Below are positions 9,383 to 16,082 of a DNA stretch of 20,000 nt, piece by piece. The DNA is taken from IMG/VR virus record IMGVR_UViG_3300002220_006884. The stretch is one strand, 5' to 3'. A program made the translations under genes and the position numbers. Position 1 is the stretch's first letter. Each line of letters opens with the position of its first letter. The notes beneath the pieces are model-generated. The model worked only from the letters and a program-made list of their open reading frames with translations, did no database searches and had not been told where the DNA came from. Source of the stretch: an uncultured virus (IMG/VR IMGVR_UViG_3300002220_006884). Taxonomy: Duplodnaviria; Heunggongvirae; Uroviricota; Caudoviricetes.

Positions 9383-9412
9383 TAGACAAAAATATAAAAG
9401 TTGATGTATAAT
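9383..9412 (+). promoter_or_regulatory. Sigma70-like promoter of the tRNA operon
   Basis: TAGACA-18nt-TATAAT with an AT-rich upstream region. Confidence 0.65.
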
Positions 9413-9469: not shown

Positions 9470-9556
9470 GCCTTGGTGGTGAAATAGGTAGACACAAGAG
9501 ACTTAAAATCTCTCGCTTTAAACGGCATGCCGGTTCGATTCCGGCCCAAGGCACCA
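9470..9556 (+). tRNA. trnL: tRNA-Leu(UAA)
   Basis: GCCTTGG/CCAAGGC, AGAGA-CTTAAAA-TCTCT, long variable arm, TTCGATT, CCA. Confidence 0.95.
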
Positions 9557-9662
9557 TATAAAAACACATCGAGGCAAAGGCCAAGCCTTGTTGTGAAACA
9601 GCCAAGCAATACGCGATTGCTTTGGTGGACGGTTAAACTCCGTTGATGTGTTTTTATATGGT
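9557..9662 (+). ncRNA. tRNA-like structured spacer element closed by an 18-bp stem
   Basis: Perfect inverted repeat 9553-9570/9645-9662 enclosing D-like, short anticodon-like, variable and T-like arms. Confidence 0.6.
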
Positions 9663-9665
9663 AAT

Positions 9666-9741
9666 GGGTTGTTAGCTCAGTTGGTAGAGCGTCTGCCTTA
9701 CACGCAGAATGTCGGCGGTTCGAACCCGTCACAACCCACCA
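9666..9741 (+). tRNA. trnV: tRNA-Val(UAC)
   Basis: GGGTTGT/ACAACCC, TCTGC-CTTACAC-GCAGA, TTCGAAC, CCA. Canonical 76 nt. Confidence 0.97.
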
Positions 9742-9750
9742 AAGATTAAT

Positions 9751-9855
9751 CTGCCGATAGCTCAGATGGATAGAGCATCTGCCTTCTTAAGTATCTTTTC
9801 TTAAGGGTATTTAAGAAGCAGATGGTCGGGGGTTCGAATCCCTCTCGGCAGGCCA
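9751..9855 (+). tRNA. trnR: tRNA-Arg (UCG or UCU) with a 28-nt hairpin insert/intron in the anticodon loop
   Basis: CTGCCGA/TCGGCAG acceptor, normal D and T arms, A20 and G73, CCA. Anticodon stem TCTGC/GCAGA encloses 35 nt instead of 7. Confidence 0.85.
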
Positions 9856-9974
9856 AAACAAGTTCTAAGAAATTAGAACAGCTAGTAGGATTGACTAGAA
9901 ATTCAATCAAACTGTTTCAGAAGTCTTGAGTGAGAAACAGAATTAACTCTGATAGCTCTATGAGTTAAACTTTT

Positions 9975-10048
9975 GCGGGTAAGCACGAGGTGTGTCGCCA
10001 GCCTTCCAAGCTGCGCAGAGTGGAATTCGATTTTCCCTACCCGCTCCA
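9975..10048 (+). tRNA. trnG: Atypical tRNA-Gly(UCC)
   Basis: GCGGGTA/TACCCGC acceptor, U73, CAGC-CTTCCAA-GCTG, TTCGATT, CCA. D arm and T stem are non-canonical. Confidence 0.8.
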
Positions 10049-10181: not shown

Positions 10182-10335
10182 GCACTTTGATAAAAAAGAA
10201 AAACCATAATACGAATGATGCCTAGCAAAAGGTGGTATGGTTCATGCAGTTTTGTCAAACAACCTAATGAAAAATAGGTTTAAGAATTAATGATTATTTT
10301 CAATTTTAGAGATTATTAAGTAGATATAAATAAGT

Positions 10336-10363
10336 AGCCCTTGAAAGAATCAAGGGCTTTTTT
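10336..10363 (+). terminator. Intrinsic terminator of the tRNA operon
   Basis: AGCCCTTGA-AAGAA-TCAAGGGCT followed by a T-run. Confidence 0.85.
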
Positions 10364-10367
10364 GTTT

Positions 10368-11588
10368 TTAAGATTTATTTTTTATTTTTGCGAGATTACT
10401 TTTTTCTTTTCCACATTCTGGACACCAACTACCTTTTTGAATATTTTGAAATGCTGAACTCCAAGTTGGGTGTAAGTGATTTTGACACTTCCATTCCATT
10501 TTAGTTTCAGAATTAATATAGTTGGTAGATAAGCACCATCCACCTTTATTTATTGCAAGCTGTTTAGCTTTTTCTAAATAATTGTTTTGATGATTAGTAT
10601 GCTTGTTTAAAAGAGATTCAATGATTGAAATATCAATTTTTTTATTAATTTCAATATTGTTATACTTCAATAATTGCAAGATATAATTGATAATTTGTTG
10701 AGAATCATCTAATTTAAAATTATCATCAATAATAATTAGTTTCACCTGGTTATCAATACAATTTTTCTTTTTTATTGAATCTTTAAATTGAATATATTCA
10801 AGTTCTTCTTTTGTTTTTCCAAAAGATCCTACCTTATAATGATGTTCACCTTGAAATTCAAAAGCAATTTTTAATTCTTCGCAATAACCATCTAATTCTA
10901 ACCTTTTATTGGTTTTAGGATTAATGTTCCATTTTGGGCGAGATTTTTCAAATTTAACTTCCAATAAATATTCTAATATATCTCTAATTTTATGTTCTTT
11001 ATAATAATAGGCAGAACATTGCGGACACCAACTATTATCTAATACAACACTTTTATATTTAGTGTTCCATATATGATTATTTGCACATTTCCATATTAAT
11101 TCTTTTTTAGCTCCGATATATTCAGTAGATAGGCAGTCTCCACCTTTGTTTTTGGCATATTCTTGGGCTAATTTTAATCCATTTTTATTTAGTGATCTTG
11201 TTGCATTTTTTAACTCATTACATTCTGGACACCAATGTTGACCAATTAAAATATTGTATTTTGCCTCCCAAGTATGACCATGAGAGCATTCCCATTTTAA
11301 TTTAGAAATAGAATTAACATATTCAATAGAAAGACATTTTCCACCTTTAGCTAAAGCATATTGTTGTGCTCTTTTTATCCCTTCTTCTTTTGTAAAGTAA
11401 CCTGCACATTGTGGACACCAAGAACCAAACATAACATTTTTAGTTGGAGCATCCCATTCATGTCCATGAGAACATTTCCAGGTTAGTTTTGAATTAGCTC
11501 CAAGATATTCAGTAGAAAGGCAATCACCACCTTTATTTTGGGCATATTCTTTAGCCTTTGCTAATCTTAATATTTGGTCATTATTCAT
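10368..11588 (-). CDS. Zinc-ribbon-repeat PD-(D/E)XK (Vsr/EDxHD-like) endonuclease, probable free-standing homing endonuclease
   Basis: Four repeats of KGGxCLSxxY...WxCxxxHxW...WCPxC flank a nuclease motif E..IR..LE...RLELDGY....IAFEFQGEHHY...D..K. Confidence 0.8.
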   Translation of the reverse strand: MNNDQILRLAKAKEYAQNKGGDCLSTEYLGANSKLTWKCSHGHEWDAPTKNVMFGSWCPQCAGYFTKEEGIKRAQQYALAKGGKCLSIEYVNSISKLKWECSHGHTWEAKYNILIGQHWCPECNELKNATRSLNKNGLKLAQEYAKNKGGDCLSTEYIGAKKELIWKCANNHIWNTKYKSVVLDNSWCPQCSAYYYKEHKIRDILEYLLEVKFEKSRPKWNINPKTNKRLELDGYCEELKIAFEFQGEHHYKVGSFGKTKEELEYIQFKDSIKKKNCIDNQVKLIIIDDNFKLDDSQQIINYILQLLKYNNIEINKKIDISIIESLLNKHTNHQNNYLEKAKQLAINKGGWCLSTNYINSETKMEWKCQNHLHPTWSSAFQNIQKGSWCPECGKEKSNLAKIKNKS

Positions 11589-11710: not shown

Positions 11711-11954
11711 TTGCTTTCTAAACGGGTGATATTAACAATTAATTCCGTAGATTAGCTAGTCCCGTTAATTTGCTTGAGTTAGTTGAAAAGGTTAAAAATC
11801 CACTGGGCATGGTTCTTTAGTATCACCCGTTTAGAAAGTAACTATAGCTTGTGAGTGAAACAAGCACTAATCATTATTTTTGATAACATATCTAAGGATA
11901 GATGATTGCAAGTAACTTGAGAAGCTGTTTCAAATTATCAAGTTCTTCACAAAG
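11711..11954 (+). ncRNA. Putative structured ncRNA(s), two domains
   Basis: 25-bp inverted repeat 11711-11735/11817-11841 with internal hairpins, then a multi-stem domain at 11849-11952. No ORF; promoter upstream. Confidence 0.6.
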
Positions 11955-12569: not shown

Positions 12570-12714
12570 ATCAGGCTATTGTTAGACTTCCTTCTAAACT
12601 CAACTTTATATGAAACTATAGTATAACTGCTCTCCTGATACTAATTCTAAATTGTTAGGCTATTGATGAACTTCCTTCTAAAATTATGGTATTTTAGTTT
12701 ATCTGCTCTCCTGA
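12570..12714 (+). ncRNA. Two tandem copies of a structured RNA motif (12570-12639 and 12655-12714)
   Basis: Both copies read AGGCTATTG-N4-ACTTCCTTCTAAA-variable-TAGT-N4-CTGCTCTCCTGA, with an end-closing stem and a covarying inner stem. Confidence 0.75.
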
Positions 12715-12867
12715 ATTTTATTTAAAGCTAAAATTAATTATTTAATTTAGCTTTCTAATATCTTCAAGTTAAATCATGTAGAATATTACTGTTTCTACAT
12801 GTGGCAGATCATTGTAATTATTAGTTCTACAGTCCTGTTAAAAAATTTAATTAAGAAAGAAGTTATT

Positions 12868-15354
12868 ATGTCAAAAATTTTCAATCAAATTCAATCCGAT
12901 TTATTTGCTACTAAACAAGTAGTATTCATTGATAGCTTTTTCAAAAATACAGATACCCAATCATTGGGGAAAAATAAAGTTGAGGCATTTACATTACTTT
13001 TAAAATGTGAACAGTTGGGATTTTCATTCAATAGTGACTTACTTAATGTTGTTTCTCATGCAACATTGCCTGAAATGGAGAATTTTTGGAATTGGATGAC
13101 TAAAGCAAATGAAAAAATCTATGGTGCATCAAGCTATAAGCCAATGTATCCAAATTTTCCTAAGCAAGTAATTGAAGCATCTGAAGCAGAGCTTTTAGTT
13201 AATGCATTTATGCACTATACTGGAGATGTATTTGGATTGAGAATTATTCCTTCTTATAAAGAAAAAGCTCGTAAAGAACTTAAGGAAGAAGTGACTCCAA
13301 TGCGAATGTCTGTTACAACTGAAGATTCAATCCAAGAATCTTTTGTAAACTATTTACTTTCCAATACATCTCTTTCTGTTTCATCAAAAGAATTGATGAA
13401 AAATATGTTTAATTACCTTCTTGAAAAAGATGCAGATTTAGTTGAGAGTATTCTTATTGAAAATAAAATTCCTCAAAAGGAAAACTTAGCATTTATGGGG
13501 GCAATTGTATTAACATCAACAATTGATTTCAATAAATCTTTAGCAAGTCAACTTCAAACTCCAACAGATTTGATTCGTTTAAGTGCAGCACTTAATGATG
13601 GAGATACAAGTTTGGCAAAAGATACAAAAATTAAAAATATGTCTCGTCCAATGCGTAAAGCCTTTGTAGCAAAACTTGAAAGTATGTTACAAGATGGAGA
13701 CAAATCTCAATTTATGGAAAATATGTTCACTTATAAAGAAAAGTGGACTCGTTTAGCTCATGCGATTCACATTGGTGAATATAAAAGCAAATGTCCTCTT
13801 GCTTTTGAGGCATTACAAAAGGTTCGTTCAAATGATAAAGATGAATCCTTCAATTATAAAATTGAGAAATTAATTACTTCAGGTAACACTGTTGGTGCTT
13901 CAGAGCAATTATGTACACGCCCAGGAGTTTTTGGTCGTATGCTTAATCAAGTATTAAGCAAGAGTAAAGATATTGCAGACCAAGAAAAGGTATTAGGTAA
14001 TTTTAAGTTGGCATCAGCATCAATTGCTACTCCAGTATTATTACAAATTCATGCAAAATTTAAGTATGACAATCAAAATGAAAAGAAAATCATTCTTCCA
14101 AAAGGTGGTTTGGGTAAGATGTTCGTTCGTGATTTAAATGCACCAAAAGTAGAGAAGGTTGTTAAGAAAAAGCCTGTATACAATAGCTACAAGGTTCCAG
14201 AAAAGGCTCCCGAAGTTAAAATGGAGTCAGCACTTGCTCAAGCATTAAAGAATGTATTAAACATTAAGGATGCGGATAAGGTTATGGCTGAAGTAAAAAG
14301 AATTATGCCAGAAATAACTGTTGCTGAAACAGAAAAAGTTAAAGAAGTAATTAAAGAAACTGCAAAAGTAGCTGTTGTTCAAAACTATACTAAAGTTTCT
14401 GATGAACTTGCAAACAAGGTTGTATCAATTATTGAAACAACTTTAATTGAAAGATTTAAATCTGCTCCAGCATTAGGAGATGTTTATATTGAAGATAGTT
14501 TAACATTACAAAATGTTCCATTTGCACAAAGAACAGCATCAAAAGCTTTGAAGACTGTGCCAAAGGGTTCACGTTTTGTGAAGGAATCAGATAAGCCAAT
14601 TATTCGTTTCTTTACATGGTGGAATGAGAATGGTGTTGATAAAAATGGTAATGCATTAAATTCTGGTCGAGTAGATATTGATTTAAGTGTCGGAATTTTT
14701 GATTCTGGATACAACTTAATTAAGCAATGTGCTTATTACGATATGAGGTCTTCAGACTATATGGCACATAGTGGAGATATAACATCTGCACCTAATGGAG
14801 CAGCAGAATATATCGATGTTAATATTGAAAAGCTAGTTGAAGATTTACCTGGAGCGGCTTATGTTGCTCAGTTAATTAGTTCATATACTTCACAAAAGTA
14901 TAGTGAGTTGCCAGAATGTTATTCAGGTTGGATGGAGCGTGAGCAAAAACAACATGGAGAAATTTTTGAAGCATCTACAGTTCAAAATAAAGTAGATATT
15001 ACCTGTGATTCAACTCAAGTATTAACTTGTCTTTATGATATCAATCGTAAAGAATATATTTGGGCAGATACTCCTATTAGTTCAAATTTTTCTAGTTATA
15101 ACAACCTTAAATCAATTAAGGGAGCAATGGCATATAATATTGAAGGATTGGTAGAAATGAAGAAGCCAAATCTATACGATTTATTTGAGATGCATGCAAA
15201 AGCTCGTGGAACAATCGTAAGTGATAAAACTAAAGCAGATACAGTTTTTTCTTTAAAAGAAGGAATAACACCTTTTGATACAGAAATTATTGCCTCCAAG
15301 TTCATGGCAGATGTGTATGAAGTACCTTCTGTTAAAAAGAAATTAAAGGCTTAA
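12868..15354 (+). CDS. Large helical (TROVE/Rot-like?) plus C-terminal TerD-domain protein
   Basis: ORF track gives 12799-15354; ATG at 12868 (MSKIFNQ) is preferred. C-terminal RVDIDLSV...HSGDITSAPNGAAEYIDV is TerD-like. N-terminal part is helical, with MYPNFPKQV and RPGVFGRML motifs. Confidence 0.75.
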   Translation: MSKIFNQIQSDLFATKQVVFIDSFFKNTDTQSLGKNKVEAFTLLLKCEQLGFSFNSDLLNVVSHATLPEMENFWNWMTKANEKIYGASSYKPMYPNFPKQVIEASEAELLVNAFMHYTGDVFGLRIIPSYKEKARKELKEEVTPMRMSVTTEDSIQESFVNYLLSNTSLSVSSKELMKNMFNYLLEKDADLVESILIENKIPQKENLAFMGAIVLTSTIDFNKSLASQLQTPTDLIRLSAALNDGDTSLAKDTKIKNMSRPMRKAFVAKLESMLQDGDKSQFMENMFTYKEKWTRLAHAIHIGEYKSKCPLAFEALQKVRSNDKDESFNYKIEKLITSGNTVGASEQLCTRPGVFGRMLNQVLSKSKDIADQEKVLGNFKLASASIATPVLLQIHAKFKYDNQNEKKIILPKGGLGKMFVRDLNAPKVEKVVKKKPVYNSYKVPEKAPEVKMESALAQALKNVLNIKDADKVMAEVKRIMPEITVAETEKVKEVIKETAKVAVVQNYTKVSDELANKVVSIIETTLIERFKSAPALGDVYIEDSLTLQNVPFAQRTASKALKTVPKGSRFVKESDKPIIRFFTWWNENGVDKNGNALNSGRVDIDLSVGIFDSGYNLIKQCAYYDMRSSDYMAHSGDITSAPNGAAEYIDVNIEKLVEDLPGAAYVAQLISSYTSQKYSELPECYSGWMEREQKQHGEIFEASTVQNKVDITCDSTQVLTCLYDINRKEYIWADTPISSNFSSYNNLKSIKGAMAYNIEGLVEMKKPNLYDLFEMHAKARGTIVSDKTKADTVFSLKEGITPFDTEIIASKFMADVYEVPSVKKKLKA

Positions 15355-15515: not shown

Positions 15516-16082
15516 TTAAAGGTTATACTTTGTTTTCCAATCAAGAGCTTCTACAGCATGGAAGATTTCTTCTTTAACGGTTGGAGCAAAGTTATTCAAC
15601 ATAAAATTATCAAAAGATCTAACGTGTGGATAATTAATCATTTGAGTAGTAAATAGAGTTCCTTCTGACATAAAATGTTCTGCTTTATTACTATTGGTTA
15701 GAATATCTCTCAAAACGAATTCAGAGACTTTAGCTGTAATTAGGTGAGTGACAAGGTTGTCTGTTTCATGAGAGCATAAGAAGTTAAATTTTTTAATCTG
15801 ATCGTTAGACAGAGCATAACCAGTTTCTTCTTGAAACTCTCTAATAGAGGAAGAGATTAAATCTTCACCTGGTTCAACTTCACCACCGATAAATCCGATT
15901 AATCCATCCCATCGTTGCATCATAAGAACAAGAGGAACAATGGTATCTTTATTTTGTTTGGAAATGCCACTATAATTTCGCCAAACATTGGTTTCAGCAT
16001 AAGCCATGATAAAAGAAGCTTGCTTCTTATTATTAGGATTACTTTTAGGTTCAATGAGTTTAATATTCAAAATGGACTCCAA
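15516..16082 (-). CDS. Nudix hydrolase, NUDT16 (U8 snoRNA-decapping enzyme)-like
   Basis: Nudix box GGEVEPGEDLISSSIREFQEETG preceded by LMMQRWDGLIGF. An alternative TTG start at 16070 follows a GGAG RBS. Confidence 0.85.
   Translation of the reverse strand: MESILNIKLIEPKSNPNNKKQASFIMAYAETNVWRNYSGISKQNKDTIVPLVLMMQRWDGLIGFIGGEVEPGEDLISSSIREFQEETGYALSNDQIKKFNFLCSHETDNLVTHLITAKVSEFVLRDILTNSNKAEHFMSEGTLFTTQMINYPHVRSFDNFMLNNFAPTVKEEIFHAVEALDWKTKYNL

What the first reader, a model, noticed from the sequence alone, without database searches (positions are those of the whole stretch)
9553..9662. tRNA-like cloverleaf with an 18-bp extended acceptor stem and no usable anticodon loop
Seen: perfect stem ACCATATAAAAACACATC/GATGTGTTTTTATATGGT encloses four arms in tRNA order. 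These are a D-like arm (AGGC-AAAGGCCAA-GCCT, GG in loop), a shrunken anticodon-like arm (GTTGT-GAA-ACAGC), a long variable arm (CCAAGCAAT/ATTGCTTTGG) and a T-like arm (GACGG-TTAAACT-CCGTT, 7-nt loop). It has no CCA of its own. Inference: a tRNA-mimic ncRNA that keeps the D/T elbow, functionally reminiscent of tRNA-like Y RNAs although not in the permuted YrlA order. tRNA finders would probably miss it.
Basis: partly seen in the sequence, partly recalled or inferred. Interest (0 to 1): 0.72.

Follow-up and report, generated by a model that had tools for sequence, protein, structure and literature searches.

The report
Self-pairing tRNA look-alike in phage cassette
Between two tRNA genes of a large uncultured phage sits a small tRNA-shaped RNA that cannot read codons, is framed by a hairpin resembling a cutting site of the host enzyme RNase III, and keeps a self-complementary loop that suggests two copies stick together; it belongs to an RNA family that matched nothing in the RNA library searched.

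Summary
The fold is real, but it has two parts. (1) The 18-bp stem is not an acceptor stem. It starts on the ACCA end of tRNA-Leu(UAA) and belongs to a large carrier-stem family in phage tRNA arrays (207 distinct copies here, unrelated inserts). The arms match the E. coli RNase III consensus in one register only (86% against at most 56%); predicted cuts are 9560/9561 and 9656/9657. This scan found such carrier stems before on other DNA. (2) The insert belongs to a conserved four-arm RNA family (44 distinct rows, all arms covary) with no Rfam match. Its second loop is too variable to be an anticodon, and the D-loop GG is not conserved. Instead the first loop keeps a 4-nt palindrome whose two adjacent middle bases covary as GC, UA, CG and AU (33 of 36 rows), the signature used for intermolecular kissing loops in OLE and GOLLD. 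A Y-RNA role is unlikely: the nearby Ro60-TerD gene has its own RNA family, and a complete phage genome with a homolog lacks Ro60. Best reading: an RNase III-released, non-decoding tRNA look-alike that homodimerises. Expression, cleavage, dimer and target are untested.

The parts
9383..9412 (+). sigma-70-type promoter-like site (11 of 12 consensus matches) in front of the tRNA-Leu to tRNA-Leu run
   Evidence: consensus match only
9470..9556 (+). tRNA-Leu(UAA); its last four bases ACCA are the first four bases of the carrier stem
9553..9570 (+). 5' arm of the carrier stem; predicted RNase III cut between 9560 and 9561, leaving 4 nt behind the CCA
   Evidence: cut site inferred from consensus
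9561..9656 (+). predicted released 96-nt RNA: 10-bp closing stem with 2-nt 3' overhang around a four-arm insert
   Evidence: inferred; fold z -2.7
9572..9588 (+). first (D-like) hairpin, 4 bp, 9-nt A-rich loop
   Evidence: 4 of 4 pairs with two-sided changes, 87% of cells paired
9579..9582 (+). palindrome GGCC in the first loop; proposed intermolecular kissing site
9589..9600 (+). short second arm (anticodon position), loop GUGA; loop length and sequence vary in the family, no decoding loop
9601..9626 (+). long third (variable-arm-like) hairpin
9628..9644 (+). T-like arm, 5 bp with 7-nt loop keeping G53-C61, U54, A58, U60; C56 replaced by A
9645..9662 (+). 3' arm of the carrier stem; predicted cut between 9656 and 9657, leaving a 9-nt leader on tRNA-Val
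   Evidence: cut inferred
9666..9741 (+). tRNA-Val(UAC)
9751..9855 (+). tRNA-Arg(UCU)-like gene with a 28-nt hairpin insert in the anticodon loop (same transcript)
   Evidence: intact Arg(UCU) at the same place in L020
9975..10048 (+). tRNA-Gly(UCC)-like gene with aberrant D arm, missed by ARAGORN and Rfam (same transcript)
   Evidence: Gly(UCC) at the same place in L020
10097..10181 (+). tRNA-Leu(CAA)
10336..10358 (+). intrinsic terminator-like hairpin with U run, closing the array
12574..12725 (+). context: two copies of a different RNA family (GGCTAT...CTTCCTTCTA) that travels with the Ro60-TerD gene
12799..15354 (+). context: Ro60-like ring with a TerD domain (851 aa ORF)

Best explanation
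The phage transcribes Leu-cassette-Val-Arg-Gly-Leu as one precursor (inferred from promoter and terminator). The carrier stem, which uses the tRNA's own CCA as part of its lower half, is cut on both strands by host RNase III (inferred). This frees the 3' end of tRNA-Leu with a 4-nt trailer, gives tRNA-Val a short leader, and releases a ~96-nt RNA. That RNA folds into four arms (shown by covariation), cannot decode (shown: no conserved anticodon loop, no CCA), and pairs with a second copy of itself through the palindrome in its first loop (inferred from adjacent-base covariation). The purpose I think most likely, about 30% on its own, is a translation-inert, tRNA-shaped dimer made in bulk with the phage tRNAs that binds and diverts host proteins which recognise the T arm of tRNA, such as tRNA-cleaving defence enzymes; a structural RNA assembly of the GOLLD/ROOL type is nearly as likely. 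Odds by step: conserved structured RNA 0.95; RNase III release 0.75; self-pairing 0.75. The confidence given is for these three steps together.
For: Carrier stem: 116 of 123 pattern matches in IMG/VR form at least 15 of 17 pairs; 207 distinct cassettes in 118 of 126 loci with inserts of very different length and sequence. Register scan on 94 distinct stems: 85.6% match to the RNase III consensus (text in PMC4357697) for a cut after arm position 7, at most 55.5% for the 14 other registers; window 14 of 20 against at most 10. Pairs 16 and 17, not fixed by the search, are U.G in 50 of 94 and U-A in 80 of 94, the optimal distal box of E. coli RNase III (PMC1540722), and pairing drops right after pair 17. 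No phage RNase III in 5 of 5 records tested, one complete. Insert: 92% of 1583 cells paired, 26 of 38 pairs with two-sided changes, every inner arm included, 0 of 500 shuffles. Palindrome: middle two bases GC 17, UA 10, CG 4, AU 2, other 3 of 36 rows; outer two paired in 35 of 36; 0 of 500 shuffles. The window's GGCC lies inside a starred clade of five GUAC rows. The palindrome is off the hairpin axis in 27 of 30 rows, so it is not a by-product of a perfect inverted repeat. Model-free check: palindrome in the first loop of 28 of 45 clusters of T-arm inserts against 25 of 114 other inserts, 13.6 expected by shuffling. Kretsch et al. use the same signature for OLE L9.3 and GOLLD L21a.
Against: No expression, end-mapping, cleavage or dimer data were obtained. 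The window's own distal box is U-A/C-G, not the canonical pair, and its first proximal-box pair is A-U, not G-C. About half of the family (50 of 94) has G-C at pair 8, which cuts E. coli RNase III reactivity 14-fold while leaving binding. Eight of 17 stem pairs were fixed by my search pattern, itself taken from the window, which inflates the consensus match. A 4-bp kiss is short. Rows are related, so 36 rows are far fewer independent events (at least 9 changes of type). A4 was aligned to a model built on 9 GUAC and 1 GGCC rows; 8 of 44 rows had gaps at the palindrome and were set aside; 3 or 4 aligned rows are not palindromic. The automatic test misfolded the window's own first hairpin and scored it negative. 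The decoy function has no direct evidence.
Confidence: 0.55

Rival explanations
1. The stem is bound but not cut (or is cut by another nuclease). The cassette stays attached to, or shields, the tRNA 3' end and controls when the tRNA matures; the insert still self-pairs and may bring precursors together.
For: G-C at pair 8 in 50 of 94 stems is a catalytic antideterminant for E. coli RNase III that keeps binding; the stem always buries the CCA; the window's distal box is non-canonical.
Against: The window has A-U at pair 8; the tRNAs upstream look intact and need a free CCA; helix length equals the minimal cleavable substrate.
Confidence: 0.15
2. It is a Y-RNA-like partner of the Ro60-TerD protein 3.2 kb downstream, with the long stem as the Ro-binding helix.
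For: The 851-aa protein matches Ro60/Rsr (Z 10.8, 10.3, 8.5 over 313-334 residues; next unrelated row 6.6). YrlA genes lie within 4 kb of Ro60 and mimic tRNA (PMC4201824). The window has a CGA at the top of the 5' arm. Phage Ro60 binds phage Yrl RNAs (PMC12135203).
Against: The protein has its own RNA family right in front of it, present in 104 of 163 sequences examined, bacteria included. Carrier stems appeared in only 5 of 153 Ro-TerD loci, all close phage relatives, and none of those carries this insert. Five records with true homologs, one complete, have no Ro-TerD, TROVE or GGCTAT RNA. No YrlA match, no permuted order, no conserved GNCGAAG motif.
Confidence: 0.06
3. The insert is a decaying class II tRNA (Leu/Ser type) or an exapted one that is still trimmed, CCA-tailed and perhaps charged for a non-ribosomal use.
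For: Arm order and long variable arm are class II-like; relaxed ARAGORN calls it a tRNA; one relative (L284) has the same fold without the carrier and ends in CCA; most members keep a canonical T loop (partly selected).
Against: Strong covariation across divergent phages argues against decay; U8, the GG and a 7-nt anticodon loop are not kept (loop 7 nt in 5 of 44 rows); no Rfam tRNA match on 20 loci with members; most predicted ends are CAA or CUA, never CCA.
Confidence: 0.12
4. The arms work at DNA level as recombination sites that shuffle inserts among tRNA ends, and the insert is a passenger.
For: The same insert family sits behind 11 kinds of tRNA (31 of 45 rows; 14 with none called); L020 has Leu-cassette-Val twice with different inserts.
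Against: U.G at pair 16 in 50 of 94 with no A.C there points to the transcribed strand; the insert itself is under structural selection. Shuffling by ordinary homologous recombination between shared arms would explain the pattern without a dedicated system.
Confidence: 0.07

Closest known systems
RNase III processing stems (T7 R1.1, rRNA operon stalks; E. coli consensus in PMC4357697 and PMC1540722)
   Same: About 17-bp A/U-rich helix, consensus match in one register, U.G and U-A distal box, A-U at proximal-box positions 2 and 3, product with 2-nt 3' overhang.
   Different: Lower half borrows the CCA of a tRNA; half the family has G-C next to the cut; the enclosed piece is a conserved RNA in its own right; no cleavage shown.
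GOLLD, ROOL and OLE RNAs (Kretsch et al., 10.1101/2024.12.08.627333; review PMC12990946)
   Same: GOLLD and ROOL lie in phage tRNA islands with unknown function; OLE L9.3 and GOLLD L21a show the same palindrome switching at adjacent bases; GOLLD lies right next to one member (L296).
   Different: This RNA is about 95 nt against 500-800 nt, is tRNA-shaped, shows one such loop, and has no Rfam match to these families.
Bacterial and phage Y RNAs (YrlA, Yrn1, phiLo Yrl1/2) with Ro60/Rsr
   Same: About 100 nt, long 5'/3' stem, tRNA-like module with T arm, a Ro60-like gene within 4 kb in this window.
   Different: Not permuted, no conserved GNCGAAG motif, no bulged helix, D-loop GG not kept, no link to Ro60 in other genomes.
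T4 species 1 and 2 RNAs (rnaC, rnaD)
   Same: Small (118-138 nt) non-coding RNAs of unknown function in T4-like phages (PMC12685909 passages); their place in the tRNA cluster and a role of RNase III there are recalled, not checked.
   Different: No sequence match of the element or of homolog L294 to 50,697 cultured-phage records.
Class II tRNAs (Leu, Ser, Tyr, Sec)
   Same: Arm order, long variable arm, T arm.
   Different: No anticodon loop, no U8, no conserved GG, no CCA, 10-bp closing stem after the predicted cut.

Membership tests
tRNA (RF00005) | Covariance-model match above gathering score | tested here: not met
   No match over the element at E<=5 or over members in 20 loci at E<=0.5
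tRNA (RF00005) | 5-bp anticodon stem with 7-nt loop | tested here: not met
   Window loop 4 nt; 7 nt in 5 of 44 rows, 2-7 nt in 42 of 44
tRNA (RF00005) | G18/G19 pairing with U55/C56 (elbow) | tested here: not met
   G19-C56-type pair possible in 17 of 37 rows; window has A56. The first G is kept in 35 of 36 rows, so a partial contact is not excluded
tRNA (RF00005) | T arm with G53-C61, U54, A58 | tested here: met
   Invariant in 10 of 10 rows of A2 and 44 of 44 rows of A4 (partly fixed by the pattern)
tRNA (RF00005) | 3' NCCA, encoded or added, and aminoacylation | not testable with these tools
   Not encoded; addition and charging need experiments
Y RNA / YrlA (RF02553) | Permuted tRNA module (T, acceptor, D order) and model match | tested here: not met
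   Order is D, short arm, V, T; no YrlA match on the element
Y RNA / YrlA (RF02553) | GNCGAAN0-1G motif near the 5' end | tested here: not met
   Only CGA in the window; absent from the nine aligned homologs; motif as given in PMC4201824
Y RNA / YrlA (RF02553) | Encoded within 4 kb of a Ro60 gene across genomes | tested here: not met
   True in the window but 0 of 5 records with homologs carry TROVE or Ro-TerD, one of them complete, four 14-39% complete
Y RNA / YrlA (RF02553) | Binding by Ro60 | not testable with these tools
   Needs a binding assay
RNase III substrate (E. coli type) | Helix with at least 11 bp above the scissile bond | tested here: met
   12 bp above the predicted 3'-strand cut; requirement in PMC1540722
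RNase III substrate (E. coli type) | Proximal box: G-C, A-U/U-A, A-U, A-U/U-A | tested here: inconclusive
   Window 3 of 4; family has G-C at position 4 in 50 of 94; positions 2 and 3 were fixed by my pattern
RNase III substrate (E. coli type) | Distal box U-A then U.G | tested here: inconclusive
   Met by the family (80 and 50 of 94) but not by the window copy (C-G, U-A)
RNase III substrate (E. coli type) | Cleavage with 2-nt 3' overhang | not testable with these tools
   No read-level or biochemical data
Self-associating phage RNAs (GOLLD, ROOL, OLE) | Rfam model match | tested here: not met
   No match on the element
Self-associating phage RNAs (GOLLD, ROOL, OLE) | Loop palindrome with covariation at adjacent bases | tested here: met
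   criterion
Self-associating phage RNAs (GOLLD, ROOL, OLE) | RNA-only oligomer seen in solution | not testable with these tools
   Needs native gels, mass photometry or cryo-EM

The most novel reading that the evidence does not exclude
Large freshwater and groundwater phages use one RNase III-cut carrier stem, docked on tRNA CCA ends, as a plug-in expression slot for a library of small RNAs. One of these is a family of tRNA-shaped RNAs whose D-loop has been turned into a self-kissing loop, giving tRNA-mimic dimers or higher assemblies that act as multivalent decoys against host tRNA-targeting defences.
Probability: 0.25. Interest if true: 0.88.

Novelty: new variant of a known kind. Interest (0 to 1): 0.7.

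Why it matters
Phage tRNA arrays hold many structured RNAs of unknown purpose (GOLLD, ROOL, T4 species 1 and 2). This family is small enough to synthesise and gives two sharp, cheap predictions: exact RNase III cut sites and a palindrome-dependent dimer with natural compensatory variants as controls. If right, it adds a natural tRNA-sized RNA homodimer, shows how phages release non-tRNA cargo from tRNA precursors by overlapping the CCA with a processing signal, and offers a route to test the idea that phage tRNA arrays carry decoys against tRNA-directed defence.

Tried and rejected
blastn of the element and of homolog L294 against cultured phages: only 19-22-nt chance matches or none. Exact 17-mer from the first hairpin in IMG/VR: 9 hits, all unrelated on inspection. 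Single-protein locus search in viral contigs: nothing. A first hairpin-based pattern had one letter too many and found nothing; the corrected one worked. No whole genome is held for the window, and the contigs of the closest relatives could not be searched whole, so the window's phage could not be checked for its own RNase III or further cassettes. Sequencing runs hold the region (20 of 23 rows, 2 with half the words or more; RNA runs only at shares of 0.14 or less), but no reads were laid, so there is no evidence on expression or ends. A generic long-stem search was too noisy in AT-rich DNA. Searches of earlier findings by sequence and place gave nothing, nor did words on a palindromic loop. 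Rejected: terminator (lies inside the array, no U run after the outer stem), pseudogene decay, Y RNA, D/T elbow. The palindrome as a DNA restriction or methylation site was rejected because seven different palindromes occur at that place. Literature: searches found no description of the carrier stem or this insert. The catalogue of 10,006 viral candidate RNAs (PMC10690425) may hold them: its alignment and diagram files could not be read, and five motifs were absent from the 3 of 6 held files that were searched. One search listed only the best 150 of 315 Rfam matches.

Full report
Setting. The window is AT-rich, phage-like DNA with a tRNA array. The element lies between tRNA-Leu(UAA) 9470-9556 and tRNA-Val(UAC) 9666-9741. 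A promoter-like site at 9383-9412 and a terminator-like hairpin at 10336-10358 bound a run Leu, element, Val, Arg-like, Gly-like, Leu (consensus matches only). No whole genome is held.

Observation. The 18-bp perfect inverted repeat is real and not chance. Its first four bases are the ACCA end of tRNA-Leu. The four inner arms are predicted, but their energy alone is ordinary (z -0.6). Rfam gives no match on the element.

The stem is a carrier. Loci of close relatives, fetched through the TerD-fusion protein (69-72% identity), show the same stem many times, on tRNA-Leu ends and in arrays, around unrelated inserts. A relaxed search of 126 sequences gave 243 cassettes, 207 distinct, in 118. Earlier notes of this scan describe what seems to be the same carrier family on other genomes; I reached the RNase III reading before seeing them, and they are not independent evidence.

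RNase III. The E. coli consensus, read from one passage of PMC4357697, was slid along 94 distinct stems (29 of 123 matches dropped as duplicates or poor stems). A cut after arm position 7 with a 2-nt 3' overhang matches 85.6% of informative positions; the 14 other registers give 24-56%; the window gives 14 of 20 against at most 10. Eight pairs were fixed by my pattern, so the unselected top of the stem is the fair test: pair 16 is U.G in 50 of 94 and pair 17 U-A in 80 of 94, and pairing falls off after that. PMC1540722 (passages and part 2 of 7) gives U-A then U.G as the optimal distal box and 11 bp as the minimal helix. In this register the C-A of the tRNA's CCA plus the next U form the lower 'CWU' box. 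Against: G-C at pair 8 in 50 of 94 is a catalytic antideterminant for the E. coli enzyme, and the window copy has a non-canonical distal box, as if it had lost the U.G pair; a review notes that the distal box is not conserved across substrates or species (PMC3867540 passages). None of five records with homologs encodes RNase III, so the enzyme would be the host's. Predicted cuts: 9560/9561 and 9656/9657.

The insert is a family. Of 207 inserts, 13 end in a T arm. Three further scans gave close homologs and 55 distinct T-arm cassettes. Ten close members give 91.5% paired cells and 16 pairs with two-sided changes. A model built on them ranks four-arm inserts above all other cassettes in 100 sources. 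Over 53 sources that I chose (one per insert type plus earlier members) it returned 45 matches, 44 distinct, at E<=1e-9; I left in about five rows that probably belong to other insert families. On this alignment 92% of cells pair, 26 of 38 pairs change on both sides, and each inner arm covaries (the alignment is fitted to the structure). Members follow 11 kinds of tRNA (31 of 45 rows), so inserts move among tRNA ends. One relative has the fold without the carrier and ends in CCA (L284). No Rfam family matches members in 20 loci.

Not a tRNA elbow but a palindrome. At the same four columns the family has GGCC 13, GUAC 10, GCGC 4, GAUC 2, AGCU 1, GGCU 2 and four others. The two middle, adjacent bases are Watson-Crick complementary in 33 of 36 rows, in all four types; the outer two pair in 35 of 36; no shuffle of 500 reaches this. 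Eight rows had gaps there and were set aside; six of them show a palindrome that the model did not align. The window's GGCC lies within a well-supported clade of five GUAC rows, a double change that keeps self-complementarity. The palindrome is shifted off the hairpin axis in 27 of 30 rows, mostly by one extra 5' purine, a geometry like retroviral dimer-initiation loops (recalled). A model-free count gave 28 of 45 clusters of T-arm inserts against 25 of 114 other inserts; that test is crude and missed the window itself. Adjacent bases cannot pair within one strand, and Kretsch et al. used exactly this pattern (GGCC to GAUC or AGCU) to support intermolecular kissing loops seen by cryo-EM in OLE and GOLLD (passages). 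By contrast a G19-C56-type pair is possible in 17 of 37 rows, and the second loop is 7 nt in only 5 of 44.

The Y-RNA idea. However, a different RNA family sits directly in front of the gene (12574 and 12658) and occurs in 104 of 163 sequences, bacteria included; earlier notes of this scan describe it. Carrier stems were seen in only 5 of 153 Ro-TerD loci. Five records with true homologs lack Ro-TerD, TROVE and that RNA; only one of them is complete. YrlA features (PMC4201824, parts 1-2 of 5) are not met.

Mechanism and odds. Shown: stem, family, four-arm fold by covariation, loss of decoding features, palindrome covariation. Inferred: co-transcription, RNase III release (0.75), homodimer (0.75). 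Guessed: decoy for tRNA-binding or tRNA-cleaving host proteins (0.3), or a structural RNA assembly. Nothing here shows expression.

Novelty. Eight literature searches and four Rfam scans found no description. Subscription journals are mostly not held, and the alignment files of the 10,006-candidate viral RNA catalogue (PMC10690425; passages) could not be read, so a catalogue entry is not excluded. Other papers seen: PMC7824862 (passages), PMC12135203 (passages), PMC12990946 (passages), 10.64898/2026.07.01.735769 (part 1 of 5; concerns manA, EGFOA and a kink-turn RNA, not this family), PMC12685909 (passages). The carrier is a repeat finding of this scan; the self-complementary tRNA-shaped insert family did not turn up in its earlier notes. 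I rate it a new variant of a known kind, interest 0.70.

Noticed in passing
window 9751-9855 +: tRNA-Arg(UCU)-like gene with a 28-nt insert that extends the anticodon arm into a long perfect hairpin (z -5.8); not bulge-helix-bulge. L020 has an intact Arg(UCU) at the same place. Intron, intervening sequence or disabled tRNA.
   Followed up: partly
window 9975-10048 +: tRNA-Gly(UCC)-like gene ending in CCA with a shrunken D loop, missed by ARAGORN and Rfam; orthologous position holds Gly(UCC) in L020.
   Followed up: partly
window 11711-11841 +: Second long hairpin RNA candidate: 24-25-bp outer stem plus inner stem, z -9.7, behind a promoter-like sequence; sequence unlike the carrier stem; no Rfam match and no match in close relatives.
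   Followed up: partly
window 12574-12725 and 12799-15354 +: Two copies of the GGCTAT...CTTCCTTCTA RNA in front of a Ro60-like/TerD gene; the pair recurs in phages and many bacterial phyla. Some copies carry T-arm-like inserts (L092, L102, L107, L147, L161).
   Followed up: partly
L016 17535-18450, L017 18861-20120, L015 18542-19454: Arrays of five or more carrier stems alternating with other structured, T-loop-bearing segments downstream of tRNA-Leu(CAA), without called tRNAs between them.
   Followed up: partly
L284 344-436 +: Same four-arm fold with GGCC loop but no carrier; ends in CCA and is called tRNA-Cys by ARAGORN.
   Followed up: partly
L301-L383: Several other conserved insert families end in a T arm (for example L307 type, 21 copies; L301, L302, L309, L315 types); each may be a separate small-RNA family.
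   Followed up: no
L296 1-395; L169, L216; L195: GOLLD RNA directly upstream of a member's carrier stem; GOLLD and a permuted betaproteobacterial-type tmRNA in other cassette-bearing arrays, a hint at betaproteobacterial hosts for some of these phages.
   Followed up: no
window 10368-11588 -; 393-2387 -; 15516-16082 -: Zinc-finger-repeat HNH-like endonuclease next to the tRNA array, an R2K-clade ATP-grasp protein and a Nudt16-like NUDIX hydrolase.
   Followed up: no
window 9856-9974 and 10182-10300 +: AT-rich spacers with several small hairpins; fold energies not above shuffles (z -0.8, -1.7).
   Followed up: partly
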